Source of the DNA: a phage
Length of the DNA stretch: 64,000 bases
Reading direction: 5' to 3' (one strand)
Sequence record: PZ445442.1
Below, piece by piece: positions 5,735 through 62,653 of the stretch (positions within the stretch are counted from its first letter, which is position 1; each line of letters starts with the position of its first letter). The notes below the pieces were generated by a model, which searched no databases, was not told the DNA's origin, and saw nothing but the letters and a program-made list of their open reading frames with translations. The translations under genes and the position numbers were made by a program.

Positions 5735-6060
5735 CAGAGATCATCATTTCAACTGCAGGGTATGTATTCCTGACAATCATTGCGCTGACTATTCTGGTGG
5801 CGGTGTATGGATTTGTTATCCTTCCTATTCTTGAGACATTTAGTTTGTGTCGGTGTTGGAGAAAAGCTTACGGTCCACAACCATGGAAGGACTGGCCCCA
5901 CCTGGTGCGCTTAGCGTTCTCTTATGCTTACGATCACTCCAGTAGTGCATGCATAACCGGATACCACGCCCACAACTGGAGCTGGGAAGGGTTGAGGAAA
6001 TGGAATGTTACAAAGACCATACCTCTGCGCATGTACAAACCTAAAAACAAAGACAACTGA
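5731..6060 (+). CDS. putative membrane protein
   Basis: 109-aa ORF, N-terminal hydrophobic stretch, ATGA overlap with upstream gene. Confidence 0.45.
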   Translation: MTEIIISTAGYVFLTIIALTILVAVYGFVILPILETFSLCRCWRKAYGPQPWKDWPHLVRLAFSYAYDHSSSACITGYHAHNWSWEGLRKWNVTKTIPLRMYKPKNKDN

Positions 6061-6095
6061 TACTTGAAAATTCCTGGCATATCAAGTATAAGGGG

Positions 6096-6560
6096 GATTT
6101 CTAAAATGGATTTCCTCCTTTTGATATTTCACCGGGCTGGATATTTTAAAATTCTTAGAAAATCAGAAAATGGATCGAAAACTAAAATGGATTTTTCAGA
6201 GTAGGCGCGACAAGCTGAATAGCTCATCCTATCGTTTGCACCATATTCCAGACCACCATTATAGATTTCCCACACATGCTAACCTCCCTCTACTAGAACT
6301 TCCTCCACTTACCCTTGACCTTCTATGGTAACAATCTAACCACTATCTTGAAGTTGCGGTGCAGCTTTCCAGGTACTCGATCTACTTTTCATTTCAGGGC
6401 TTGGATTTTCTGAAAATTTTTCTCGATAAATTTCTCAGTACTCGATCTGTTTTTCGTTTTCTGAATCGGATTTTCTGGAAATCGTTCCGGATCTCGACCT
6501 GAAATTTTTGGGGACGAAATCTATTTTTCGTTTTCAGAAATGGATTTTTAAAATTTCTAT
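6096..6560. repeat. non-coding island with dispersed AAATGGATTT motifs and three degenerate ~60-bp tandem units (starting about 6373, 6438, 6492)
   Basis: Direct reading; no ORF with RBS. Confidence 0.6.
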
Positions 6561-6689
6561 ATGGGAATATTTTATGGGGCACTGTTTTATAGGAAATTGT
6601 TACGGAGGGTAATTAGCATGCTAATTAAATTTATTAAATGCGAGGGATTCTTATTTAGAATTTTGAATGATAATTATTCTCGTTTGCAG

Positions 6690-7175
6690 AATAACGGGCA
6701 GGCCCGGTGATTGTCTCCCGGCCCCTGCTGCCCCGGCTTGTTATTATAGTATCACACAGGACAAAGAAGGCAAGGATTTTTTGCATAAATTTTTAAATGA
6801 TAATGATAACCGTTCTCATTTTATGAAGCGCCCATCCCCGGTGGTTGTCTCCCCCGTCACCGGTGCCTGCCGTCCTTTCGATAGGTATATTATGCCGCCT
6901 GGCGGGGCCGCTGTCAACACTTTTCAAAAAATTTTTCTAACCTGATGCGCTAACCGTTGCAACCTGGCGGGGCCAGCCTGGCAGGTCCGCACTATAAAGT
7001 AAACAGCTACAGAAGAGGTACAAAAATGAAAGGTAATGCTACTCGCCTGGGAAATGTAGTGATTAATGATACGGAAGCTATCGCCCTGGTTGAAAAGGTT
7101 ATGGCGGGAGCGTTGGAACATAAAGAAGAGTACGAAAAAAATGGTGGTTAACCTGGCGGGGGGCGGCAGGTGGAT
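6690..7175. repeat. GC-rich short repeats (CCGGTG(A/G)TTGTCTCC at 6703 and 6839; CCTGGCGGGG at 6898, 6963, 7152) in AT-rich background
   Basis: Direct reading; inverted copy of the 22-nt GGCAGGCCCGGTGATTGTCTCC occurs at about 16285-16306. Confidence 0.55.
7026..7151 (+). CDS. hypothetical small protein (41 aa)
   Basis: ATG at 7026 after AGAAGAGG RBS; flanked by CCTGGCGGGG repeats. Confidence 0.3.
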   Translation: MKGNATRLGNVVINDTEAIALVEKVMAGALEHKEEYEKNGG

Positions 7176-7282
7176 TCTATCATAAAAATAATTTAAAATA
7201 GTCGTTGACAACAAGGTTAATCATGGTATTATTACCCTACAAGGTGAACAACACCGCACTAACCAGTAAAGAGGATAAATTT

Positions 7283-7480
7283 ATGAACGCATACGGGATC
7301 AAAGTACGTCGCAACACTCGCCAGGTGGTCACCAATCAAGTGATTTGCCGGGTGGATGTAACCATCAACAACGGGCAAGGCCTTTATAAATTTCGTCGCG
7401 GCCATAGCTATACCCTGCAACAGCTTAATCGTTGCGCCCTGACAAAAGGTCAGATCAACCACTGGTTTAATAAAAAATAA
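7283..7480 (+). CDS. hypothetical protein
   Basis: ATG at 7283 after AAAGAGGA; promoter-like TTGACA-N16-TATTAT at about 7205-7232. Confidence 0.5.
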   Translation: MNAYGIKVRRNTRQVVTNQVICRVDVTINNGQGLYKFRRGHSYTLQQLNRCALTKGQINHWFNKK

Positions 7481-16016: not shown

Positions 16017-16208
16017 ATGAATATCGAACAAGTTAGAAAGGTATTGGCGGTACTGCGTTATCATAATCATAGAAAGGTTATAGACGATCCTGATTATGTT
16101 GATTCAAGTCTGGAAGGGGATACACTGCAAGCCATAAGCAACATGCAAGAATTGCTCAAGCGCATGACAGAGAAAAACCGACCGGACTACATAGGCGAAA
16201 AAATATAA
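16017..16208 (+). CDS. hypothetical protein
   Basis: 63-aa ORF. Confidence 0.45.
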   Translation: MNIEQVRKVLAVLRYHNHRKVIDDPDYVDSSLEGDTLQAISNMQELLKRMTEKNRPDYIGEKI

Positions 16209-16224
16209 TCCTTATAAACTACAA

Positions 16225-16255
16225 AACAGGGCTTGCAATGGTCCTGTTTTTTGTT
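16225..16255 (+). terminator. intrinsic terminator (stem AACAGGG/CCTGTT + T-run)
   Basis: Hairpin followed by TTTTTTGTT after gene 16017-16208. Confidence 0.65.
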
Positions 16256-16419
16256 ATACTTGTTTCACGGCAGGCACCTGGCGACGGGTGGAGACAATCA
16301 CCGGGCCTGCCTGTCATATAAGAACTATAAAAACCGTTGACATCTGCCAGGTGGTGGGGTAACATTTATCTTGAAGGGGCAAAAGTGCCCACACAACAAC
16401 CAGAAGAGAGGAAAACATT

Positions 16420-17877: not shown

Positions 17878-17895
17878 TTTTTTAACTGAATTATC

Positions 17896-17922
17896 AAGGG
17901 GCTTAGGCCCCTTTCTTTTTGT
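17896..17922 (+). terminator. intrinsic terminator closing the + strand block (AAGGGGC-ttag-GCCCCTT + TCTTTTTGT)
   Basis: 7-bp perfect stem plus U-run 20 nt after stop. Confidence 0.85.
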
Positions 17923-18409
17923 CTGCTCTTCCCCCTACCATAAACGGCCCTACCTGGCAAGTGGAATAATTGACGAGCCATCAATCCCACACACTGTACA
18001 AACATACATATAAAATAACTATTGCATAATTTTTCATTGTGTGGTAGCAGGGCCATTTTTACACATTTTTCCTTCCAAAATTGCACGTAATGCAGCATTT
18101 GCACAAAATTTAACCTGATGCATATATTCAATAGCTTGTCAACAACTAAAAATCTTTATAAGTCATACACTTACATAACTACAAAAGCGTTTTCTACGTG
18201 AAAAATCGAGTATAACTATAGCCGCCAGATCTCAGAATTTACGTACGCTCGCCATTCTATAGCCTGCTAAGCATTTATTCCAACCATAGAATAACGGAAT
18301 AGTCAATACCTGCATAAAATAATTATTCGTGTAAACTGCATAACATAAATCGGCCCAGGTGTCAACATTTTTCGTAAACAGTCTGGAATTGTCACGTTAG
18401 GTTACCATA

Positions 18410-18760
18410 AGCAGAGAAATCTTTAGTCGTCTAATGTTTACTGTACGTTACTATATTAACTGAAATCATTAGATGACTAATAGAAAGATAAGAAATAATT
18501 AACAATACAATTATTTTATCTGTAACAATAAGGCAACTATGCAAACGAATGGCATGGCGCGACGGAGTCGCGACATAATATAAAAGCAGTAACCATCACC
18601 CCCGTGATAGTTTGTCTGCAAACTATTAATCAGATCATAGTTGCCTTGTATTTAGTTAATCATGACATAACAAGCAAGGCAACTATAGATCTTCTAATAG
18701 TTGCCCTGCTTTTATATTATGTCATAAATTATTAACATGCAAACGAATGGCATGGCTTAT
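18410..18760. repeat. non-coding repeat cluster (direct repeat ATGCAAACGAATGGCATGGC at 18538 and 18728; inverted GACATAATATAAAAGCAG/CTGCTTTTATATTATGTC; AAGGCAACTAT motifs in both orientations; palindrome ATAGTTTG-TCTG-CAAACTAT)
   Basis: Direct reading; no credible ORF. Confidence 0.55.
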
Positions 18761-19329
18761 AATTTTTGAGAAAATAGTCTATACGTGAACAGTAAGGCAT
18801 GCAATAGTAACAATTGTTATTGTATCCAGTGTGTTGAGTATGCCCAGTATGTCACCATTGTGTCCAGTATGTCAGACAAGTTTTCCTCCTCTTTGTCAAG
18901 TGCTGCATGAAAAATTTACAAACTGGTATGGTAGCATTTTTGCGGCCCTGTTTACATTCAGTAATGTATGTATAATCCTTGTTGTGTGGGCGTTTAGACG
19001 TCTAGACGGTTGGAAGTCTACAGGTCAATATCTAATCTATTGGCTGCTAACTATATCCCACACAAATAGTAAGAAATATGATTGTTATATGCGTAAACTG
19101 TAACTCATGTTATCAATCCCTGTATGTATCACCAGTGGTGCGCATAATGGGTATTATGTTAAATTGCCCGTAATGATAACTATTCTCACAATGATAGGTA
19201 TTCTCATTCACCCCAACAAAATAGGTTGCAAATGTTGTGCCACTGTGTGAACGGCCTCACCTATTAATTTGCCTCACTGCCTCGATATTTGAGAATTATT
19301 ATAAAAATGAGAAGTATTCCCATTCCGTC

Positions 19330-19630
19330 CGCCTGGCAGCACTCCAGTCGCTACGGCTCCTGACAGGGCAGCACTCCTGTAGGTCAGGTCAAAATCGGGG
19401 TAGAACTGGACCTGTTCAGATATTTCTGGCTGACTCTTCAGGTCTGTGTGGGAAAAGCCAACCTCTCCGGCGGGGCAGGGGAGGTAAATTAAAAAATTTA
19501 CGTGGTGTATGAAGAGCCCTTCAGGTAAGGCATGTATTATAGGATGAAACCCTCTTCAGGCATGATATTTGTGGGTGTGATATTTGCTGGAAAGCCAGAT
19601 ATGACGGGACTCCCGGCGGGGCAGGGGTAG
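19330..19630. repeat. short GC-rich direct repeats (GGCAGCACTCC x2; C(T)CCGGCGGGGCAGGGG at 19457 and 19609)
   Basis: Direct reading. Confidence 0.45.
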
Positions 19631-20323
19631 TACAGACGGGGAAATATGGGGATGTAGTTGGGGAAATTGATCAGGCAGGTGGGGTATAGGATATGTTACA
19701 AGTATGTTAAATATGGAGGTTGAATATCTGTAGGATTTGTGTGTAAAATCAAAGACTTAAGTGGTGTTGTGGTATTTTCTATAAATAATTCAAGTTTAAT
19801 AGGTAATATTTGCCTCTATCCACTTTGTGTGGTAAACAGATTCAGATGAGATTAGTTTACAAGTGTATACATAATATACAAATTAAAGATACAGGAAACC
19901 CCCCTCCCCCTTCGGCTACCATTCACCTTTTCCTCTGACTGGTACTTAAACACTTATTCAGACTCTTCAGGTTATCACCCATATATCATATGGCAGTGAC
20001 TGGTGTCCTCCGGCCCCTCTTTCGTCACCCGTCCGCTTCGCCATGCTAATGCCATAGCCAAAGGTTCGGTTGTTCACCCTGTTCACTCAGGTGTATCTCC
20101 ATACCCCTTCAAACCGAAGAGAACAGAAAACCCGAATTACTCGGTAAAAGAAAAGAGAAGAACTTAATTTTATCAGGATAGGCAAGAATGTCAAGGCATG
20201 ACTGCTCACTAAACAAGCAAACAGTCATGTGTGGGAGGTAAGTGATTGTGGTGGTGGGAAATTTAGTTGAAAGATGTGTTATAGGTGCGCTTCCAGCACT
20301 TTAGCCGGGCAGCTAATTGTGTG

Positions 20324-36265: not shown

Positions 36266-37534
36266 TCAGCAACCACAACTTCCGTAGTGCTTAACTCGCT
36301 CGATAACTTCCGCTTGCTTACCTTTATTGTAAGGACGGGAGTTAGGACTGGAAAGATATCCAGACACTCTTCGGATCACTGAGATATATTGTTCATCGTG
36401 GCATCCGCACGCAGGGCAGCAGAACCCTTTAGCTGTTGCACTGAACTCACCAGAGAAACCACACTTGAGACATTTATCCACAGGTTGGTTAATACCAAAA
36501 TACATAATGTGTTTATACCCGAAGTCAACAAGAGCCTCTAAAGCATCCAGGTTGTTTTTCAGGTTAGGTGTCTCTACGTATCCGATGTTGCCACCAGAGG
36601 AGATCATAGCAAAACCTTCCTCATACTCCCACTTATCAAAAGGAGAGCTATTTATCCATACTGGCTGATGGAAACTGTTGGTGAGATATTCATGCTCGTG
36701 CTTCAACACTTCCGGATATTCACGATCCAGACAGGTTGCAGCTTTATAGCATAGACTCTCAGAAGGAGTGCCGTACAAGCTAAATGCTAGTCTACTTTCC
36801 TTCTTGTATCGCTCACAAGCATCTCTCATGTGCTGAAGGATTCTAAGAGCTAAAGCCTTGTCACCCTCTCTACCCAAAATCTGACAGGTTTCATACACAC
36901 CAATATACCCAATACTGATGGAAGCGTACCCGTCATAGAAGAGTTTATCAATACTCTCTTCAGGACCCAGGCGAGCAAGAGCGCCTTCACACCACATGAT
37001 AGGGTTCTGCCCTGCCTTGGTGCCTTTCAGACGGTTAACCCTTACAAGGTGAGCTTCATATGCCAAATCCAGATACTCGTCAAGAACGGCAAAGAAATCA
37101 ACACCTTCCGTCTTAGCTTTTGCCGCAATCATTGGTAGGTTAAGGCTAACAACACCCAAGTTGAATCTGCCGAGGTATTTCTCCTCACCTGTTTCCAAGT
37201 CATTGTATTTGCTAAGAAAACTCCGGCAACCCATGCTCGTTACTTTGCCATCTGTCGATCCTGTTACTTTACGATTTAGTGGAACAGAAACAAAGTCAGG
37301 ATAAATCCGCTCTGCAGAGCATTCCAGAGCTAATCGTTTCAAATCATAGTTAGGATCTCCAGGGTTCATGTTGACACCCTCTTCTAGGAAGAACAACACT
37401 TTAGGGAACACAGGTGTGATACGTTCTTCACCAAGACCCATTTTGTGGACTTTCAAGTAGTTTTTGGTAATCATTCTACCAAAGACTGAGGTGTCCAGAC
37501 CTAAACTTAATGTGATGAATGGAGTCTGCTGTCT
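36266..37534 (-). CDS. nrdD: anaerobic ribonucleotide reductase NrdD, exon 2 (C-terminal part; 5' boundary approximate)
   Basis: C-terminal Zn-binding cysteines and glycyl-radical motif RVSGY; frame stays open 93 nt upstream of annotated ATG to the HEG stop. Confidence 0.8.
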   Translation of the reverse strand, partial: RQQTPFITLSLGLDTSVFGRMITKNYLKVHKMGLGEERITPVFPKVLFFLEEGVNMNPGDPNYDLKRLALECSAERIYPDFVSVPLNRKVTGSTDGKVTSMGCRSFLSKYNDLETGEEKYLGRFNLGVVSLNLPMIAAKAKTEGVDFFAVLDEYLDLAYEAHLVRVNRLKGTKAGQNPIMWCEGALARLGPEESIDKLFYDGYASISIGYIGVYETCQILGREGDKALALRILQHMRDACERYKKESRLAFSLYGTPSESLCYKAATCLDREYPEVLKHEHEYLTNSFHQPVWINSSPFDKWEYEEGFAMISSGGNIGYVETPNLKNNLDALEALVDFGYKHIMYFGINQPVDKCLKCGFSGEFSATAKGFCCPACGCHDEQYISVIRRVSGYLSSPNSRPYNKGKQAEVIERVKHYGSCGC

Positions 37535-38325
37535 CCTCCCTGTGTTTCCACAGGGCCAGACTATCTCTTACTCTACTTCAATAAGATAATAACCCTTTAT
37601 TGTGAGATGCTTACCTTCGGCATTTCCTTCGATAGCCCTATGAACGTTACCTACGTTCAAGTTTAAGGCTTTTGCACAGGCATAGAGTGAAGGATATTCA
37701 CCCACCAAGGTTTTCCCTTTGTATGCCTGCACTTTCCTATAGCACTTACCTGGACAAAGTCCTGTTCGGAAAGCATGTCTCTTATTATCTTCCGGCAAAA
37801 CCCACTCTAGGTTAGACGGATGATCATTCAATGTATTGCCATCTTTATGATTCACTTCCCAGTTTTCAGGGTCTTCTGGGACATCCGGCAAACAATACAA
37901 GGCAACAACCCTTGAGGTTTGGATTCGAATCTTTTTACCTTTGTGGTTGAAAGAGTACATATAACGGCGTTTAACATGCTTGTTACCTTTTCCATAACCT
38001 CCCCACAATATTGGGTGTAGCATTCCACGTTTCCCGTATACGTTTCCAACCTCATCAATCACATAGTTTGATTCTTCACCATTAAGAATGATCTTTTTCA
38101 TAGAGCCTCTCCATTTCGAAGTTAGTATTTCAACTAACCCCTACACTACTTGGTTCAGAAATGTTTGTCAAGCATCTCTGCCTTTCGTTAGTCGTTACAA
38201 CCGTTCCAACTCCTGTAAGAACTAGTCACGGGATTGGCATAGCTTTCGCCTTAGCGTTCCCCGTTAGCCGGATTTACCGACCCCTCTTATGAGGTTAGGA
38301 GAGTTTTACAACGGCCAGTTTGTTA
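37535..38325 (-). mobile_element. putative group I intron in nrdD carrying an HNH homing endonuclease (boundaries approximate)
   Basis: Splits NrdD into two ORFs in the same orientation; GACUA (R-like, around 38223-38227), AAGAGAUAGUCU (S-like) right after HEG stop, CCCUGUG-GAAA-CACAGGG hairpin (P9-like), G before exon 2. Confidence 0.65.
37568..38101 (-). CDS. HNH homing endonuclease (HNH_3 type with NUMOD-like N-terminus and C-terminal HTH)
   Basis: WEVNHKDGNTLNDHPSNLEWVLPEDNKRH matches HNH_3 consensus; own RBS GGAGAGG. Confidence 0.85.
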   Translation of the reverse strand: MKKIILNGEESNYVIDEVGNVYGKRGMLHPILWGGYGKGNKHVKRRYMYSFNHKGKKIRIQTSRVVALYCLPDVPEDPENWEVNHKDGNTLNDHPSNLEWVLPEDNKRHAFRTGLCPGKCYRKVQAYKGKTLVGEYPSLYACAKALNLNVGNVHRAIEGNAEGKHLTIKGYYLIEVE

Positions 38326-39186
38326 ACCGTTGACAGAGGTTAACGTATTGATTTGATAGAGCAAAGTCTGCATGCTGTCAAATACATCTTTATCTGTCAT
38401 TTGCATTGCAACAGTTTCAGCATCCGGCAACCAATGTTCCTGGCAAAATTTAAGGTTCTTCTCATAGGTCGCTCCAGCATACTGTGCCAGATAATGATCA
38501 ATATGGCTCATAGTCTGACCTCCATATTGAGCACTAGCTACAGCACTAGAGATTTGGCTAAGGATTGTTGTTGCAACCCCTATTGACTTCGGCTTACTGA
38601 CATGGGCGTTACCAATGTTGAATCCGTTTTCCAACATATCTGGATAATTTACCAAACAACAGTTTGTTAACGGACTGATCAAGTAGTCAAGATCATGCAC
38701 ATGGATGAAGCCTTTATTGTGCTCTTCTGAAACACGGTCTGGCAGGATCTGTGTTGATGCAAGGTGTTTGCTAAGGATGCCTGCAAGCAGGTCACGATGA
38801 GTGTGTACATGATTAGTAGGCTTATTTGCGTTTTCTTTTGTAAATTCATCACAAGTTCGATCCAAGAAGCCACTAATATCTGCAAGCAGTTTTCCACCTG
38901 CCTCTCTGTTATTATCTCTTGTCTGTCTATACTGGATGTATTCTCTGGCTGCACATTTTAAACCCATATCCATAAGAGCATCTTCAACAAGGATATGGAT
39001 ATTTTTTACAGAGATCGTGCACTGGTCGGTTGGTAGATTGTTAGCCACAACTTCATTAACCGCGCAGGCGATCCGGTAAGCTTCTTCTTCAGTATGTCCA
39101 GACTCAAGTAAGGCGGACTCTGCCGCCTTGATCACCTTAATTCCGTTATAGAACTCTTCTCTACCGTCCCGTTTTACAACTTTCAC
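38323..39186 (-). CDS. nrdD: anaerobic ribonucleotide reductase NrdD, exon 1 (N-terminal ATP-cone part)
   Basis: MKVVKRDGREE ATP-cone start, HVHDLDY motif; stop lies just inside intron. Confidence 0.8.
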   Translation of the reverse strand: MKVVKRDGREEFYNGIKVIKAAESALLESGHTEEEAYRIACAVNEVVANNLPTDQCTISVKNIHILVEDALMDMGLKCAAREYIQYRQTRDNNREAGGKLLADISGFLDRTCDEFTKENANKPTNHVHTHRDLLAGILSKHLASTQILPDRVSEEHNKGFIHVHDLDYLISPLTNCCLVNYPDMLENGFNIGNAHVSKPKSIGVATTILSQISSAVASAQYGGQTMSHIDHYLAQYAGATYEKNLKFCQEHWLPDAETVAMQMTDKDVFDSMQTLLYQINTLTSVNG

Positions 39187-39461
39187 TTTTTCTCTCCAAA
39201 ACCATTCTTAACAAAAGAGATGAAATCGTCGGCACCGCCTATATGGACACTGTCAAGATCGCTTTCTAAGAAGATCTGCGGCAACGTTCTGGGGACAATT
39301 GGACTGCACTTCTCAATAAGCTCTTCTTTTGTGTAGCCCTCGCCAAGTGTCTTATATACAAAAGGCAGACCTTTGCTGATTGCAAATTCTTTTGCTCTGA
39401 CACAATGTGGGCAGTTATCCTTACCGTAAATGATGATGAAAAAAGATTTTTCGCAGCTCAT
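39183..39461 (-). CDS. glutaredoxin/NrdH-like redoxin
   Basis: Active site YGKDNCPHC (CPxC); 92 aa; between nrdB and nrdD. Confidence 0.7.
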   Translation of the reverse strand: MSCEKSFFIIIYGKDNCPHCVRAKEFAISKGLPFVYKTLGEGYTKEELIEKCSPIVPRTLPQIFLESDLDSVHIGGADDFISFVKNGFGEKK

Positions 39462-39464
39462 ATA

Positions 39465-40553
39465 TTAAAACTCCCAAATTTCTTCTTCAGCGTCGTTAAC
39501 AGTTGTGTTGACGCGGTAGTCAGTGTTCGACATTTCTTGGTTCGCCGTCTGTTGTAATGAAGGTTTCATCCACACCTGCATAAACGGTAGCGGGTCCTTT
39601 GTTGGCGGCACAAAGTCTTTGTCGATGTCGTAGTAATCATAAATCGGTGAGCAGTTATAGTCAACCCACTCTTTAAGCAACGGTGAGTTAAGACCTATAA
39701 TCGCTCTTCCTTCGCTGAAAATATAGTCACTCCAACCGTACTCTTTGGTTCGTACTTCATCAAGAATCTCTTTTAACTCCCCCTTTATCTCAAGGAAGCT
39801 TTTCTCCCATGCGGGATCATTAAGCAAGATATCAATGATGGCAAAATCACCTTTCGAATGTAGCATTTCGTCAAGCATGATTTTTTGAACAAGCTGCGCC
39901 ACCTGAACAAAGATACCCTGTTCAGCTACTGCGAAAGTGCATGCAAAACTTGCAATAAACTCAATACTTTCCAGAGCTAAAAGTGCAAAAAGCGCTCTAA
40001 GAATGCATTTCCGCACAACATCTTCTTCAACACTAGAAGGATCCAGGCGGTATTTTGCACCAATAACCTCAAGCTCTTGCATGTATTTGACAATAACGCC
40101 GGATCTGCTCAGAACGTTTTGGTTTTCCTGAATCTCTTCTATAATCTCACGGGCATTGGGGAGGCATTGTCTAACAATCTCTGAGTAAGTTAGTGCGTGA
40201 AGAACTTCAATCTCTGACTGTTTCATCAATAGAGTGAAAAGCTCACTATTAGTGATGAATGGTGAAAAGAGGCAGATGATCGATCTTGCCGCAACGCTAT
40301 CAGCCTCCCATTGCCACATCAAGGTCTGCACCATCACGTCATAAGTTGACTTTGAGCATGTTACAAAATCTGAAATAGATTGCGACAAATCCACTTCATC
40401 CTCTGCCCAATCTTGCTCTTTTTGTTTTTTGTATAGTTCAAACAGTTGTGGATATTTTTTGTTGATAGAGTCGTACATACCCATTTGCTGTCCCAGAAAC
40501 AGCGGATAGTCACCAGTTTTATGAGCGGTGTTCTCAGCATTAAATACAGCCAT
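39465..40553 (-). CDS. nrdB: ribonucleotide reductase class Ia small subunit
   Basis: Di-iron ligand motifs (EVLHA, ESIEFIASF, DEMLHS), C-terminal acidic tail; start moved to MAVFNAENT with GAGGTAG RBS. Confidence 0.85.
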   Translation of the reverse strand: MAVFNAENTAHKTGDYPLFLGQQMGMYDSINKKYPQLFELYKKQKEQDWAEDEVDLSQSISDFVTCSKSTYDVMVQTLMWQWEADSVAARSIICLFSPFITNSELFTLLMKQSEIEVLHALTYSEIVRQCLPNAREIIEEIQENQNVLSRSGVIVKYMQELEVIGAKYRLDPSSVEEDVVRKCILRALFALLALESIEFIASFACTFAVAEQGIFVQVAQLVQKIMLDEMLHSKGDFAIIDILLNDPAWEKSFLEIKGELKEILDEVRTKEYGWSDYIFSEGRAIIGLNSPLLKEWVDYNCSPIYDYYDIDKDFVPPTKDPLPFMQVWMKPSLQQTANQEMSNTDYRVNTTVNDAEEEIWEF

Positions 40554-40591
40554 TATTCTACCTCTAAAATGGGGCCGAAGCCCCTTTAAAA

Positions 40592-42907
40592 TTATAGTGC
40601 ACAGCTTTCGCAATACGGATCTTCAACTGAACTATCTGCAATCAAAGGATAGTTCTTTCTGGTTTCATCTTCAGCCTGTTTCTTGGCATGAAGTTCCTCT
40701 GCCAAGGAGTCACCAGCACCAACCCTAGAGTTTAAATAATACCATGTCTTCATCCCGAATTTAGTGGCACGGATAAGGTACCCTAACTGCTCCTTCATTG
40801 AAATTTTACCATCTTTCAACTTGGTGTAGTCTATGTATAAATCCGCGCTGATTGCCTGACCTGTGAATTTTTGAATCACGGCATACATATCGATCATGTC
40901 GTTAGTATCAACGTCCCAAGCCGAGGTGTAATACTCTTTCAACTCATCATAGTCAGGAACGATAAACAGCACCTGCCCTTGTGGCGACTTTTTAAAGATA
41001 ATGTGCTCACGGACAGGATAAACCCCGTTAGTGGTGTTTGTTGCCAGCGAAGAGCTTTCATTAGGCATATATGCTTCAAGAACGCTATTACGTAGCCCAC
41101 CATTCTCAATGATTTCTTTACGTAACCCTTCCCAATCCTGTTTAAGAGAAGGATCTTTCACCACGCTATCGACCTCTTTGTTATAGGTGTCGATTGGTAA
41201 CCAACCTTCTGGATATTTTGTTTTATGCATCCACTCGCAGACACCACGCTCTTTTGCCAACCGTAAACTTGCCTTATGCAAGCTGTAGCTGTGAAGTTCT
41301 GCAAGATCGTGAACGAGCTGTTTACTTTCAGGAGACCCGTAAGTAACCTTGTGGCTGGCAATAAAATGTGCAACATTGGTAAGGCCAACCCCGATGGATC
41401 TGCGTTTTTTAACTGTGCTTTCCATATTTTCATACGGATATGTCATGATTTCCATAACATTGTCAATCATAAGCACCGTATAGTATGCAACATCCTCATA
41501 CTCCTCTGGAGTAACCCTCCCAGCTACAAGAGATGACAGGAAGCACAATGCAACCTCTCCATCATCAGCATCGTACTTGAAGATATTACGCATATCTGAA
41601 TAGCCTTTTGTCGGGAGGGCTATTTCTGCACACAGGTTGCTTGAATAGATCACATCTTTAAAAGGTGTATGTCTATTCATCTCATCTGTCCAGTATACGT
41701 ACAGCCTTCCCACCTCAGTGCGCTGCGTGATCAGTTCAACAGCAAGATCTCTGGCTCGGATCCATGTTTTAGGAATACTGTCATCTTTAGCAATACGATC
41801 AACCTCTGCATCAAACTCCTCCATAGACATGGTGAAGATACCCTCATGCAGTTGAGGCGCGTGCTTATAAGAAACAAGCATCCAATCTAAATTCTTAGCC
41901 ACACGGTTGATAAACGACCTATTAATACCGATGGAGTAGTCCATGGTGTTGATTCTTTTTGAAGCAACAGTCATAGGGTTTCTCAAACGGATTAGCTCAT
42001 CAATCTGCGGGTCCAGTGCAAGGAATGATACTGTTGCAGAACCACCACGTGATTGTTGTCTGTTCTCCTTAACCCCAGCATCAATACCTCGATAATATGG
42101 AATCTTACCCATATGTTTAATAGTGTTACCACGAACACCATCGCCTGCAGATCTTGAGGATAAGTAGTAGCCGATACCTGCTTGATTAACCGTCATTGTG
42201 TACGCAACTTCACGTGCCACACCAATAGATTTTGCTGTATCGTCAGCTTTTATTACACAACAAGATGCATATCCTGTCTTACCTGTGCGCAGCCCGTTTA
42301 AGTACGGTGTCGGGGCATTGATCTTTAAGTCGGACAGATAAGTGTATAATTTTACAACATCGTTGATACGACGTTCTTTCGGCATATTCTTCATGACAGC
42401 CATTGCTATCCCCATAAACATCATCTGGGGAGATTCAAACAAGGTGTCTTTAAGAGTATCCTTGATCCCATATTTGTCGCGAAACTGTTTAAGGACTGCA
42501 TAGCCATAACCGAGATCTTTACTGTGGTCAATAACAGCGTCTAAAGTGTTTAGCTCGGTAAAGCTATAACCCATATCCTCCCAATAACCTTTCTCAACCA
42601 TGTCATTGTAAAATGATGGTAAGGAAGGGATCTTTGTAAACCCTCCAAAAGCCTCTTTATAGATCTGACCAATAAGAACACGACCAGCCATACAGGAATG
42701 TGCTTCGTCTTTACGGCTAACACAAGAGTCTATAATAGCTTGGTTAACTTCTTTGGTTGTACATCCATCATACAACCGCTTGTAGGCATCCAGTGCAATA
42801 TGTGACCAATTGCCGTTACCATCGTCACCGAAAATAGCTGCCTTATTTAAACGTTCTGGATCGAATGCCACTTCACATCCGTTGCTTTTAATTACCTTGG
42901 TGATCAA
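40592..42907 (-). CDS. nrdA: ribonucleotide reductase class Ia large subunit
   Basis: ATP-cone N-terminus, NLCAEIALPT active-site motif, C-terminal CESCAL. Confidence 0.9.
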   Translation of the reverse strand: MITKVIKSNGCEVAFDPERLNKAAIFGDDGNGNWSHIALDAYKRLYDGCTTKEVNQAIIDSCVSRKDEAHSCMAGRVLIGQIYKEAFGGFTKIPSLPSFYNDMVEKGYWEDMGYSFTELNTLDAVIDHSKDLGYGYAVLKQFRDKYGIKDTLKDTLFESPQMMFMGIAMAVMKNMPKERRINDVVKLYTYLSDLKINAPTPYLNGLRTGKTGYASCCVIKADDTAKSIGVAREVAYTMTVNQAGIGYYLSSRSAGDGVRGNTIKHMGKIPYYRGIDAGVKENRQQSRGGSATVSFLALDPQIDELIRLRNPMTVASKRINTMDYSIGINRSFINRVAKNLDWMLVSYKHAPQLHEGIFTMSMEEFDAEVDRIAKDDSIPKTWIRARDLAVELITQRTEVGRLYVYWTDEMNRHTPFKDVIYSSNLCAEIALPTKGYSDMRNIFKYDADDGEVALCFLSSLVAGRVTPEEYEDVAYYTVLMIDNVMEIMTYPYENMESTVKKRRSIGVGLTNVAHFIASHKVTYGSPESKQLVHDLAELHSYSLHKASLRLAKERGVCEWMHKTKYPEGWLPIDTYNKEVDSVVKDPSLKQDWEGLRKEIIENGGLRNSVLEAYMPNESSSLATNTTNGVYPVREHIIFKKSPQGQVLFIVPDYDELKEYYTSAWDVDTNDMIDMYAVIQKFTGQAISADLYIDYTKLKDGKISMKEQLGYLIRATKFGMKTWYYLNSRVGAGDSLAEELHAKKQAEDETRKNYPLIADSSVEDPYCESCAL

Positions 42908-62554: not shown

Positions 62555-62653
62555 GCTAGGTAAGCCCTTTGGCAAGGGCGAGGATTTTTAATCCTGAAAA
62601 TAGACGAGGTAGTCGTTGAATACATAGGTGGTTCGATTCCATCACCTAGCACC
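62555..62653 (+). tRNA. atypical tRNA-like element (possible tRNA-Lys UUU with about 30-nt insertion in variable region; may be non-functional)
   Basis: Acceptor GCTAGGT/ACCTAGC 7/7, D-arm GCCC-TTTGGCAA-GGGC, T-arm GGTGG-TTCGATT-CCATC, but the anticodon arm is irregular and the element is about 97 nt. Confidence 0.4.

What the first reader, a model, noticed from the sequence alone, without database searches (positions are those of the whole stretch)
6060..7260. 1.2 kb repeat-rich non-coding island inside the early gene block
Contains AAATGGATTT motifs, three degenerate ~60-bp tandem units, and GC-rich repeats (CCGGTGATTGTCTCC, CCTGGCGGGG) in an otherwise AT-rich, gene-dense region. A 22-nt segment (GGCAGGCCCGGTGATTGTCTCC, 6696-6717) recurs inverted at about 16285-16306. 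This could be an ncRNA locus, origin-like region or recombination hotspot; only one weak 41-aa ORF has an RBS.
Basis: seen in the sequence. Interest (0 to 1): 0.5.

Follow-up and report, generated by a model that had tools for sequence, protein, structure and literature searches.

The report
Conserved non-coding iteron/Fur-box control island
This gene-free stretch of an rV5-like E. coli phage is a built-to-plan DNA control module (three repeated binding sites, iron-regulator-type boxes, backward-pointing promoters and a signature 20-base motif) that is shared by very distant phages. It is most likely a replication origin or control region that nobody has described.

Summary
The window is the Vequintavirus Escherichia phage EmilHeitz. 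Bases 6061-7025 are non-coding: the ORFs annotated there lose starts or gain stops in relatives and show no third-codon-position bias, whereas the flanking genes do.

The island is a conserved multipartite module:
- GATATTT and AAATGGWTTT repeats
- a hypervariable spacer
- three tandem units that each carry a ~20-bp iteron
- an 18-bp palindrome
- Fur-box-like palindromes
- a signature motif, X (GCAGGnnCGGTGwTTGTCTC), present twice
- a strong minus-strand sigma-70 promoter whose GC-rich spacer is the "CCTGGCGGGG" repeat

Parts or all of this layout recur in Certrevirus, Seunavirus, Mydovirus, Phapecoctavirus, Pseudomonas phage PAK_P3 and unclassified phage contigs. Promoter position and strand skews indicate leftward transcription, against the flanking genes.

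There is no Rfam match and no conserved RNA fold. My best reading (about 0.4) is a transcription-activated, iteron-type replication origin or control region with a host Fur input. The rivals are a leftward non-coding RNA locus and a plain promoter/operator cluster. I found no published description.

The parts
6061..6200 (.). Left conserved block: GATATTT x2 (6123, 6140), AAATGGATTT x2 (6104, 6185) and AAATGGATCG (6169).
   Evidence: Nearly invariant in 11 Vequintavirus sequences. The same two motif classes (GATATTTG x2-4, then AAATGGTTTT repeats) form the left edge of the island in PVP-SE1, Mydo, L013 and L016/L018 and in KaOmega.
6201..6365 (.). Hypervariable spacer, C-rich on the + strand (GC skew -0.37).
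   Evidence: Mean pairwise identity is 0.81-0.84 against 0.93-0.98 in neighbouring blocks. Skew. The minus-strand 48-aa ORF here is not conserved and shows flat codon-position variation, 16/14/17.
6363..6548 (.). Three tandem units (65 and 74 nt apart). Each starts with an iteron core: GGTACTCGATCTACTTTTCAT (6372), AGTACTCGATCTGTTTTTCGT (6437), and the degenerate GGGACGAAATCTATTTTTCGT (6511).
   Evidence: the repeat finder family D1/D2. Homologous three-copy arrays: KaOmega GGTCTCGATCG.. (78/63 nt), PVP-SE1 GTACTCGATC.. (75/67), PAK_P3 GGTACTCGACAGATTTTCAC (32/31), contig L012 GGTCTCGACAGATTTTCAC (31/21).
6610..6627 (.). 18-bp perfect palindrome TAATTAGCATGCTAATTA.
   Evidence: Read from the sequence. 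Conserved in the Vequintavirus alignment apart from one A/G site (6618; G in L034 and L035).
6636..6690 (.). Fur-box-like palindromes. The core TGATAATTATTCTCG at 6668-6682 matches 12/14 of the 7-1-7 consensus TGATAATnATTATCA. A weaker box lies at 6636-6656. The conserved CAGAAT follows.
   Evidence: hits with at least 12/14 number 8 strand-hits in 64 kb against 0.92 in shuffles. The position is conserved in 5 genera.
6697..6718 (-). Signature motif X, copy A. Read on the minus strand it is GGAGACAATCACCGGGCCTGCC.
   Evidence: This stretch is 75-86% identical in distant genera. The motif occurs in 17 IMG/VR stretches.
6743..6773 (-). Possible second leftward promoter, TTGCCT-N19-TATAAT. It is weak here because of the 19-nt spacer.
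   Evidence: Read from the sequence. The homologous position in other genera scores as a promoter: KaOmega TTGCCA-17-TATATT, PVP-SE1 TTGATC-16-TATTAT.
6795..6822 (.). Fur-box-like array B: AAATGATAATGATAACCGTTCTCATTT.
   Evidence: Matches 16/19 of GATAATGATAATCATTATC at 6799. Conserved in all Vequintavirus sequences with only three variable positions (6796, 6798, 6810).
6831..6885 (-). Signature motif X, copy B (core 6838-6852), with a local stem CCGGTG/CACCGG.
6889..6917 (-). Leftward sigma-70 promoter TTGACA-N17-CATAAT (11/12). Its spacer is 94% GC and contains CCTGGCGGGG copy 1 (6898-6907).
   Evidence: Hexamers and spacing are kept while the spacer sequence diverges in KaOmega, ukendt, Mydo, PVP-SE1 and L013.
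6957..7011 (+). Degenerate rightward promoter region, TTGCAA + CCTGGCGGGG copy 2. It is also the mosaic/indel junction.
   Evidence: Relatives have TTGCAA-N16-TATAGG or a duplicated version, with repeat-flanked deletions between copies. FFH2 identity drops from 97% to 82% here.
7026..7151 (+). Small gene (phrog_21957), 41 aa here and 57-58 aa in relatives. CCTGGCGGGG copy 3 (7152-7161) lies in the lost reading frame.
7205..7232 (+). Rightward promoter TTGACA-N16-TATTAT for the next early gene (ATG at 7283).
16233..16311 (+). Motif X copy C with its own promoter: TTGCAA-N16-TATACT (16233-16260) sits inside a terminator. X follows on the + strand (GGAGACAATCACCGGGCCTGCC, 16290-16311) inside a 7-bp GGCAGGC/GCCTGCC hairpin.

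Best explanation
The island is a conserved cis-acting, non-coding control locus. It is not a set of genes and not a classical structured RNA gene.

It appears to be read leftward, against the surrounding early genes, from host-type sigma-70 promoters with unusual GC-rich CCWGG-containing spacers. The transcripts would pass through motif X about 20-45 nt after the start site, then through the Fur-box-like palindromes, and then into an AT-rich region that holds an array of three about 20-bp iterons.

The most likely role is the phage's replication origin or replication-control region. In that model a still unidentified phage protein binds the iterons, and leftward transcription opens or primes the AT-rich DNA. 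Precedents I name from my own knowledge are T4 oriE/oriF, the T7 primary origin and lambda ori. In the enterobacterial phages the host iron sensor Fur, or a protein with the same specificity, would gate this process.

**Shown:** non-coding status, the modular anatomy, its conservation across distant phages, and the position and orientation of the promoter-like elements.

**Inferred:** that transcription actually occurs, that Fur binds, and that replication starts here.
For: 1. **Non-coding.** Codon-position tests against flanking controls, broken ORFs and phase drift across genera.
2. **Same ordered parts in distant phages.**
   - Vequintavirus.
   - Certrevirus KaOmega, Seunavirus PVP-SE1, Mydovirus and L013 have the full enterobacterial layout.
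   - Phapecoctavirus members (ukendt, L016, L018) keep the layout, with a different tandem unit in place of the iteron units.
   - Nankokuvirus PAK_P3/Ab03 and contigs L012 and L022 share the core: three iterons, then 136-221 nt from the last iteron, then X.
3. **Three iterons with a shared core**, GGT(A/C)(C)TCGA..TTTTCA, but variable spacing of 21-78 nt. Variable spacing fits protein-binding DNA sites.
4. **Low-GC flank.** 30-34% GC at 6366-6695, with A/T tracts.
5. **Promoter orientation.** Across 18 contexts of motif X, the best sigma-70 match is better in the leftward orientation (mean 8.4 against 7.1 of 12; at least 9/12 in 7 contexts against 0). Among the candidates scoring at least 8.5/12, the -10 end lies 27-40 nt from X, mostly 27-31, apart from the two Phapecoctavirus contexts at 60 nt. 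The scan tool independently calls minus-strand promoters in the window, KaOmega and PVP-SE1.
6. **Skew inversion.** AT and GC skews invert inside the island, so the minus strand is the purine-rich one, as the sense strand is in the flanking genes.
7. **Fur-like boxes.** Matches of 12-13/14 to the 7-1-7 Fur consensus lie immediately next to X, up to five in about 110 bp (consensus cited from PMC4506495). The phage carries iron-dependent NrdA/NrdB.
8. **Conservation.** Nucleotide identity in the blocks is 0.93-0.98, equal to or above flanking genes. A core stretch is 75-86% identical across genera whose flanks do not align.
Against: - No initiator gene was identified. All flanking proteins have unknown function, with no Rep-like or DNA-binding Pfam domain.
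- No DnaA box with up to 1 mismatch lies in the island, and there is no GATC cluster.
- There is no global skew switch. The published rV5 skew analysis tied every switch to a change in transcription direction (PMC3606486).
- The only related phage with a mapped origin, ICP1 (theta origin near 60 kb, PMC7145576), lacks the module within 15 kb either side of it.
- PAK_P3 has no Fur-like box, so Fur cannot be part of the core mechanism.
- A second, larger non-coding region at 17.9-20.3 kb, with Fur-like boxes and GATATTTG repeats, is an equally open origin candidate.
- No transcript or replication data were available to me for any member.
Confidence: 0.4

Rival explanations
1. Leftward non-coding RNA locus. 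The conserved minus-strand promoters make one or more trans-acting RNAs. These could be short X-type RNAs (and, in other genera, the about 120-nt Y block downstream of the first promoter) or a long repeat-bearing RNA that regulates or sponges a host or phage factor. The Fur-like boxes would make expression depend on iron. The iterons would then be RNA-level repeats.
For: - Conserved promoters at a fixed distance from X.
- Sense-like purine skew on the minus strand.
- One compensatory pair (A-U to G-C, 7 against 5 sequences) in a hairpin of the Y block. By my own reading of the aligned sequences, there is also a CCCC/GGGG to CCAA/UUGG change in L013.
- Precedent for a functional non-coding RNA in this phage group: pseudo-ToxI of phiTE (PMC3475682).
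Against: - No Rfam family even at E up to 5.
- RNAalifold finds no consensus structure in 19 X contexts.
- Folding energies do not favour either strand.
- No terminator follows X or Y on the minus strand.
- Iteron spacing varies from 21 to 78 nt.
- X has no complementary target elsewhere in the 64-kb window.
Confidence: 0.25
2. Ordinary regulatory intergenic region. On this view the island is a cluster of divergent early promoters, operators and terminators that controls the neighbouring early genes. One version is a Fur-repressed rightward promoter (TTGAAT-N18-CAGAAT) that drives X and the downstream genes. The repeats would be operator sites for a phage transcription factor.
For: - The Fur-like boxes overlap -35/-10-like hexamers on the + strand, the classical repressor position.
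- Back-to-back promoters share the same GC-rich spacer (KaOmega 1761-1789 and 1814-1842).
- Copy C of X lies between a terminator and a gene promoter.
- Repeated, strictly conserved promoter elements are known in PAK_P1/KPP10-like phages (PMC4309531).
Against: - The rightward candidates score only up to 8.5/12 and are inconsistent: the key A at -11 is replaced in Mydo, L013 and L021.
- The island is about 1 kb, far more than promoters need.
- Every downstream gene has its own strong promoter.
- The three-iteron array lies 140-220 bp away from any promoter.
Confidence: 0.2
3. Recombination or packaging site. The repeats mark a recombination hotspot or mosaic boundary, or a pac-type packaging initiation site with repeated boxes and bent DNA.
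For: - A sharp drop in identity and repeat-flanked deletions at 6920-7040.
- Published reports that phiTE and PVP-SE1 are circularly permuted, implying headful packaging (PMC3475682).
Against: - The mosaic junction touches only the right edge; the core is among the best-conserved DNA in the region.
- In PAK_P3 the predicted genome terminus is at gp113, far from the module at gp80-81 (PMC4933390).
- The island is not near the terminase genes.
Confidence: 0.08
4. Conventional small protein-coding genes, as annotated in GenBank: bas49_0102, bas49_0103, bas49_0104 (phrog_14993) and the minus-strand phrog_35702.
For: Two of the ORFs match narrow PHROG families built from deposited annotations. The ORF at 6667-6945 stays open in most Vequintavirus genomes.
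Against: - Codon-position variation is flat, while flanking controls show strong third-position bias.
- Start codons are lost and stops gained in relatives.
- The frame is not kept across genera.
- By my reading of the sequence, 6667 has no ribosome-binding site.
- Annotations are inconsistent between records.
Confidence: 0.03

Closest known systems
Iteron-type, transcription-activated phage and plasmid origins (T4 oriE with RepEB, T4 oriF/oriG R-loop origins, the T7 primary origin, lambda ori, pSC101-type three-iteron origins). Named from my own knowledge, not tested here.
   Same: - A small array of about 20-bp direct repeats next to low-GC DNA.
- Host-type promoters that fire into the array.
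- Host-factor-type boxes between promoter and iterons.
- Non-coding, and a single copy in this 64-kb window.
   Different: - No initiator gene is recognisable next to it.
- No DnaA boxes.
- Iteron spacing is large and variable (21-78 nt).
- A signature motif X sits at +20 to +45 of the transcripts.
- Origin activity has never been measured.
Fur-regulated operators of Enterobacteria (Fur box GATAATGATAATCATTATC, or the 7-1-7 form TGATAATnATTATCA; PMC4506495).
   Same: Matches of 12-13/14 (and 16/19), palindromic, often in overlapping or tandem arrays.
   Different: - They lie in a strictly lytic phage and next to no iron gene.
- The systematic T-to-G variant (TGAGAAT/ATTCTCA) could equally mark a phage protein's site.
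- They are absent from the Pseudomonas member of the module.
- Binding is untested.
pseudo-ToxI non-coding RNA of Pectobacterium phage phiTE, a Certrevirus (PMC3475682).
   Same: A functional non-coding repeat locus in an rV5-like phage. Motif X shares a GGTGATT heptamer with ToxI/pseudo-ToxI.
   Different: - pseudo-ToxI lies at another locus, beside the tRNA genes.
- Its repeats are about 36-37 nt and ToxI-like.
- The island's repeat units are 65-74 nt and unrelated.
- The promoter-supported strand of X is the opposite one.
Repeated 41-nt promoter elements of PAK_P1/KPP10-like phages (PMC4309531).
   Same: Strictly conserved sigma-70 promoters, including conserved non-hexamer bases, in the early region of a related phage group.
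   Different: Those are rightward gene promoters (TTGACA-N17-TAgAAT). The module described here lies just upstream of one of them in PAK_P3 (promoter_06) and, as far as I could read, that paper does not describe it.

Membership tests
Iteron-type replication origin | Array of at least 3 direct repeats of about 17-22 bp | tested here: met
   Three copies in the window and in KaOmega, PVP-SE1, PAK_P3 and L012, all with a shared core.
Iteron-type replication origin | Adjacent AT-rich DNA-unwinding region | tested here: inconclusive
   GC is 0.30-0.34 at 6366-6695 against about 0.43 around it. No defined 13-mer-type element was found, and the PAK_P3 version is not clearly AT-rich.
Iteron-type replication origin | Cognate initiator, usually encoded nearby | tested here: not met
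   Flanking proteins match only PHROGs of unknown function and have no Rep or DNA-binding Pfam domain. No flanking gene is shared across all the phage groups.
Iteron-type replication origin | DnaA boxes or other host replication-factor sites | tested here: not met
   No TTATCCACA with up to 1 mismatch lies within 6060-7260, and there is no GATC cluster.
Iteron-type replication origin | Replication actually starts here | not testable with these tools
   Needs marker-frequency sequencing, 2D gels or an ori-trap plasmid.
Fur operator | Sequence match to the Fur box | tested here: met
   6668 scores 12/14 and 6799 scores 16/19. Relatives reach 13/14, with up to 5 boxes in about 110 bp.
Fur operator | Overlap with the promoter it represses | tested here: inconclusive
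   The boxes overlap only sub-threshold + strand hexamers (TTGAAT-N18-CAGAAT, 8/12). Relative to the better minus-strand promoters they lie downstream of the start site.
Fur operator | Fur binding and iron-dependent activity | not testable with these tools
   Needs EMSA or ChIP, and a fur mutant or an iron chelator.
Structured non-coding RNA gene | Match to a curated RNA family | tested here: not met
   Rfam finds only tRNAs at gathering score. Nothing credible appears at E up to 5 in the island or in four homologous loci.
Structured non-coding RNA gene | Conserved secondary structure with covariation | tested here: not met
   X: zero consensus pairs in 19 contexts. Y block (other genera only): 16 predicted pairs, of which one covaries.
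Type III antitoxin mimic (pseudo-ToxI) | Tandem repeats of about 34-37 nt resembling a ToxI-type antitoxin | tested here: not met
   The units here are 65-74 nt. The only resemblance is a 7-nt GGTGATT match. phiTE's pseudo-ToxI is at a different locus.
Protein-coding genes | Conserved frame and third-position substitution bias | tested here: not met

The most novel reading that the evidence does not exclude
Strictly lytic rV5-like, phAPEC8-like and related phages carry an ancient, undescribed origin or control module: three iterons plus motif X behind GC-spacer promoters. In the enterobacterial lineages this module has recruited arrays of up to five near-consensus Fur boxes. Phage replication, or a leftward regulatory transcript, would then be gated by the host's iron status. 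Alternatively, the amplified phage DNA would titrate Fur and de-repress iron uptake to feed the phage's iron-dependent ribonucleotide reductase.
Probability: 0.15. Interest if true: 0.8.

Novelty: new variant of a known kind. Interest (0 to 1): 0.62.

Why it matters
rV5-like (Vequintavirinae), phAPEC8-like and PAK_P3-like phages are widely used as therapy candidates, yet their origins of replication and early control circuits are unknown. The rV5 genome paper tried and failed to locate an origin by skew analysis.

This module gives a precise, testable candidate that is shared across hosts from E. coli to Pseudomonas. It has defined parts (iterons, motif X, GC-spacer promoters) that can be mutated one at a time.

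The Fur-type box arrays raise a further possibility. If real, they would be a direct link between host iron sensing and the programme of a lytic phage. My literature searches found no paper describing this.

There is also a practical point: three to four "hypothetical protein" genes annotated in this island in many GenBank records are probably not genes.

Tried and rejected
- **Rfam.** Gathering and E-value modes on the window and four homologous loci gave only tRNAs and chance hits.
- **RNA structure of X.** RNAalifold on X found no structure. Per-sequence folding of both strands gave no clear strand preference (-288 against -307 kcal/mol summed).
- **Tandem Repeats Finder.** It misses the three degenerate units.
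- **Replication-type sites.** No GATC cluster and no DnaA boxes in the island.
- **Bacterial origin of X.** The GTDB genome scan gave 59 hits. Almost all lie inside bacterial coding sequence that reads ..AGAVIVS.., and by my estimate about 35 are expected by chance. I conclude X is phage-specific.
- **phiTE pseudo-ToxI.** It is a different locus and a different repeat.
- **PAK_P3 RNAs.** sRNA1 and sRNA2 lie elsewhere, near the tRNAs. The ONT-cappable-seq TSS tables were not held as text.
- **ICP1.** Its mapped theta origin region has no iteron or X module.
- **Flanking proteins.** All are of unknown function. The blastp similarity between the ORFs that overlap X in different genera comes from nucleotide conservation, not from a conserved frame.
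- **Trans targets.** The window holds no site complementary to X other than the X copies themselves.
- **Literature.** Searches for Fur boxes in lytic phages, Vequintavirus transcriptomes, and origins in rV5 or PVP-SE1 found nothing describing this locus.
Full report
**Identity and setting.** The 2-kb stretch around the finding is 100% identical to Escherichia phage EmilHeitz (Bas49; Vequintavirus, rV5-like); window coordinate = record coordinate minus 76758. The megablast search found 117 related records. The island lies among small rightward genes, each with its own sigma-70 promoter. The window also encodes NrdA/NrdB, NrdD and a DNA ligase.

**Check of the observation.**
- The 22-mer is at 6697-6718 and, inverted, at 16290-16311; no shuffle gave a match.
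- The 15-mer has a third copy at 6838.
- CCTGGCGGGG is exact at 6898, 6963 and 7152, with 7 near-matches in the window against 1.4 expected.
- Three about 47-62-nt units lie at 6363, 6428 and 6502.
- AAATGGATTT is exact three times in the island, but the motif is not enriched window-wide.
- The 41-aa ORF at 7026-7151 is a real small gene truncated by one extra A. Relatives encode 57-58 aa, so the third CCTGGCGGGG falls in what is coding sequence elsewhere.

**The island does not code for protein.**
- GenBank records disagree on which ORFs to call here: anything from none to eight, on either strand.
- In an 11-genome Vequintavirus alignment, bas49_0102 and bas49_0103 lose their start codons or gain stops.
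- Variable columns are spread evenly over codon positions for all island ORFs (9/11/11, 7/6/10, 11/5/13, 16/14/17). The flanking genes give 13/9/37 (p = 9e-6), 4/4/14 and 0/1/11.
- The 92-aa ORF (phrog_14993) looks conserved by blastp across genera. That is an effect of nucleotide conservation. The ORF that starts at the ATG inside the Fur-like box is cut after 6-30 codons in most genera, and its phase drifts along the alignment.

**Anatomy.** Comparison with relatives splits the island into ordered parts:
1. 6061-6200: a conserved block with GATATTT and AAATGGATTT/AAATGGATCG repeats.
2. 6201-6365: a hypervariable, C-rich spacer (identity 0.81-0.84).
3. 6363-6548: three tandem units, each beginning with an iteron, (G/A)GTACTCGATCT..TTTTC(A/G)T.
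4. 6610-6627: an 18-bp perfect palindrome.
5. 6636-6690: Fur-box-like palindromes.
6. 6697-6718: motif X, copy A.
7. 6795-6822: a second Fur-like array.
8. 6838-6852: motif X, copy B.
9. 6917 to 6889: a near-consensus minus-strand promoter, TTGACA-N17-CATAAT. Its 94%-GC spacer is the first CCTGGCGGGG.
10. 6920-7040: a variable zone holding a degenerate rightward promoter with the second CCTGGCGGGG.

Blocks 3 and 5-9 are 0.93-0.98 identical among genomes. That equals or exceeds the flanking genes.

**The module is much older than the genus.**
- A sensitive BLAST of the island found 247 phage records. Outside Vequintavirus, only about 60-135 nt around the Fur-like box and X align (75-86% identity). 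The hits always fall in stretches with no feature, or only a hypothetical protein, annotated.
- In the four relatives I read (KaOmega of Certrevirus, ukendt of Phapecoctavirus, Mydo, PVP-SE1 of Seunavirus) the match sits inside a 0.7-1.3-kb largely unannotated gap. Mydo and PVP-SE1 have one small minus-strand CDS in it.
- The order of parts is the same in these and in further IMG/VR contigs: GATATTTG repeats and AAATGGTTTT repeats, a variable spacer, three tandem units of about 54-72 nt with the iteron (replaced by a different tandem unit in the Phapecoctavirus members), one to five Fur-like boxes, X, then GC-spacer promoters.
- These genera carry an extra conserved about 120-nt GC-rich block ("Y") between two leftward promoters. 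Vequintavirus lacks it and has a second X instead.
- An exact-pattern scan for X also pulled out unrelated-looking contigs. In three of them the core layout is again visible: three iterons, then 136-221 nt from the last iteron, then X.
  - PAK_P3/PAO1_Ab03 (Nankokuvirus, Pseudomonas): GGTACTCGACAGATTTTCAC x3, spaced 32 and 31 nt.
  - L012: GGTCTCGACAGATTTTCAC x3.
  - L022.

- L012 and L022 have no blastn relatives in the phage collection.
- X is not a bacterial element. The 59 matches in 596 Gb of bacterial genomes are nearly all coding sequence that reads ..AGAVIVS.., and by my estimate about 35 are expected by chance.

**Direction of transcription.** For 18 distinct X contexts I scored the best sigma-70-like match upstream of X in both orientations.
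- Reading X as GAGACAAWCACCG (leftward in the island) gives better promoters: mean 8.4 against 7.1 of 12, and at least 9/12 in 7 contexts against none.
- Among the candidates scoring at least 8.5/12, the -10 hexamer ends 27-40 nt from X, mostly 27-31, apart from the two Phapecoctavirus contexts at 60 nt.
- The scan tool independently calls minus-strand promoters at the homologous places: KaOmega 1789 to 1761 and 1627 to 1599; PVP-SE1 1773 to 1745, 1613 to 1586 and 1487 to 1458. It calls no plus-strand promoter at the X/Fur-box position or anywhere in the core of these islands. The only plus-strand calls are the rightward promoter at the right edge and one 9/12 match in KaOmega (1413-1441).
- The first leftward promoter keeps its hexamers and 17-18-nt spacing in five genera while the GC-rich, CCWGG-containing spacer changes. 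That is what selection on promoter function would produce.
- AT and GC skews invert inside the island, so the minus strand is purine-rich, as the sense strand is in the flanking genes.
- Copy C at 16.3 kb fits the pattern. There X is on the + strand, 30 nt after TTGCAA-N16-TATACT, and points the same way as the genes.

**What X is not.** X has no Rfam match. RNAalifold finds no consensus pair in 19 contexts. Single-sequence folds give varying hairpins with no clear strand preference. X is therefore conserved as a primary sequence placed just after a promoter. That fits a protein or polymerase recognition site, or an RNA seed, better than a structured RNA. Block Y shows one compensatory pair.

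**Fur-like boxes.**
- The palindromes (consensus AATGAGAATCATTCTCATT) match the 7-1-7 Fur consensus at 12-13 of 14 positions. The Fur box is cited from PMC4506495; the 7-1-7 form TGATAATnATTATCA is from my own knowledge.
- In the 64-kb window, hits with at least 12/14 number 8 strand-hits against 0.92 in shuffles. They fall in this island, in the second non-coding region near 19.2 kb, and at one other site.
- L016 has five boxes in about 110 bp directly beside X. L018 and KaOmega have several.
- PAK_P3 has none. It has two TGTAGCACGTCA.. repeats in the same position instead.
- The boxes therefore look like a lineage-specific input, not part of the core. Whether Fur or a phage protein binds them is untested.

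**Interpretation.** The anatomy fits best with a transcription-activated, iteron-type origin or replication-control region. The supporting features are:
- a fixed small number of protein-site-like direct repeats with variable spacing;
- low-GC flanks;
- inward-firing host promoters;
- accessory-factor boxes;
- a single copy of the full array within this 64-kb window, and deep conservation without coding capacity.

I put this at about 0.4, because key features are missing or untestable:
- no initiator gene;
- no DnaA boxes or GATC cluster;
- no global skew signal (PMC3606486);
- the one related phage with a mapped origin, ICP1, lacks the module.

The rivals are a leftward non-coding RNA locus (0.25), a plain promoter/operator hub (0.2), a recombination or packaging site (0.08) and real small genes (0.03). 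The right edge of the island is a genuine mosaic junction: FFH2 identity falls from 97% to 82% at about 6986-7011, with deletions between repeated CCTGGCGGGG-type spacers.

**Novelty.**
- The rV5 genome paper marks one region (which one is not stated) as a "non-coding" box with no ORFs and reports no origin.
- The PAK_P1/KPP10 paper describes only repeated rightward promoters.
- The PAK_P3 RNA-seq annotation leaves the homologous 450 bp blank.
- No paper in the library combines "Fur box" and "iron" with "lytic phage" and "phage genome".

I therefore rate this as an undescribed variant of a known kind of element, with a speculative but testable link to host iron sensing.

Noticed in passing
window 17880-20320: A second, larger (about 2.4 kb) ORF-poor region where the rightward and leftward gene blocks converge. 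It holds four Fur-box-like palindromes (19174, 19192, 19290, about 19306), three of the window's four GATATTTG copies (19284, 19564, 19579), a repeated CCGGCGGGGCAGGGG (about 19468 and 19612), and several other direct repeats. It may be related to the island, or may be the true origin.
   Followed up: partly
window 16205-16360: Compact arrangement: a terminator hairpin with a -35 hexamer in its loop (TTGCAA-N16-TATACT), then motif X in a perfect 7-bp hairpin, then a second promoter, TTGACA-N17-TAACAT, whose spacer (CTGCCAGGTGGTGGGG) resembles the CCTGGCGGGG spacers. A terminator followed by a TAT(A/T)CT -10 hexamer and then X also appears in L021 and L017; L021 also has a -35 hexamer (TTGACT) in the hairpin loop, L017 does not.
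   Followed up: partly
window 7130-7151: The small gene (phrog_21957) is truncated to 41 aa by an A7 run where relatives have A6. This is either a real frameshift shared by the EmilHeitz lineage or a homopolymer sequencing error.
   Followed up: partly
L005 1640-1760; L006 1690-1790; L007 1680-1775; L008 1645-1745: A conserved about 120-nt GC-rich block (..TACCGGCGATCCACCTTCC..GTTAGCCCCGCCTTTTCGCCGTGGGGTGGCG..) lies downstream of the first leftward promoter in Certrevirus, Phapecoctavirus, Mydovirus and Seunavirus. It is absent from the window. It has one covarying hairpin pair and no Rfam match.
   Followed up: partly
window 62555-62653: ARAGORN calls a 99-nt tRNA-like gene with a four-base anticodon (atcc) inside the tRNA cluster. 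Rfam's tRNA model scores it only 35.5 bits.
   Followed up: no
phage collection hits: Sixteen to seventeen records named 'Campylobacter phage' (host C. jejuni) carry this E. coli rV5-like sequence at 87-97% identity. They are probably mislabelled or contaminated entries.
   Followed up: no
L006 1840-2130 (minus strand); L007 1826-2011; L008 1794-1976: In other genera a small leftward gene (about 60-90 aa) sits at the right end of the island, upstream of the first leftward promoter. Vequintavirus has no counterpart.
   Followed up: no
window 36266-42907: The phage encodes both aerobic class I ribonucleotide reductase (NrdA and NrdB; iron-dependent from my own knowledge) and anaerobic NrdD. This gives a possible reason for a link to iron sensing.
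   Followed up: partly
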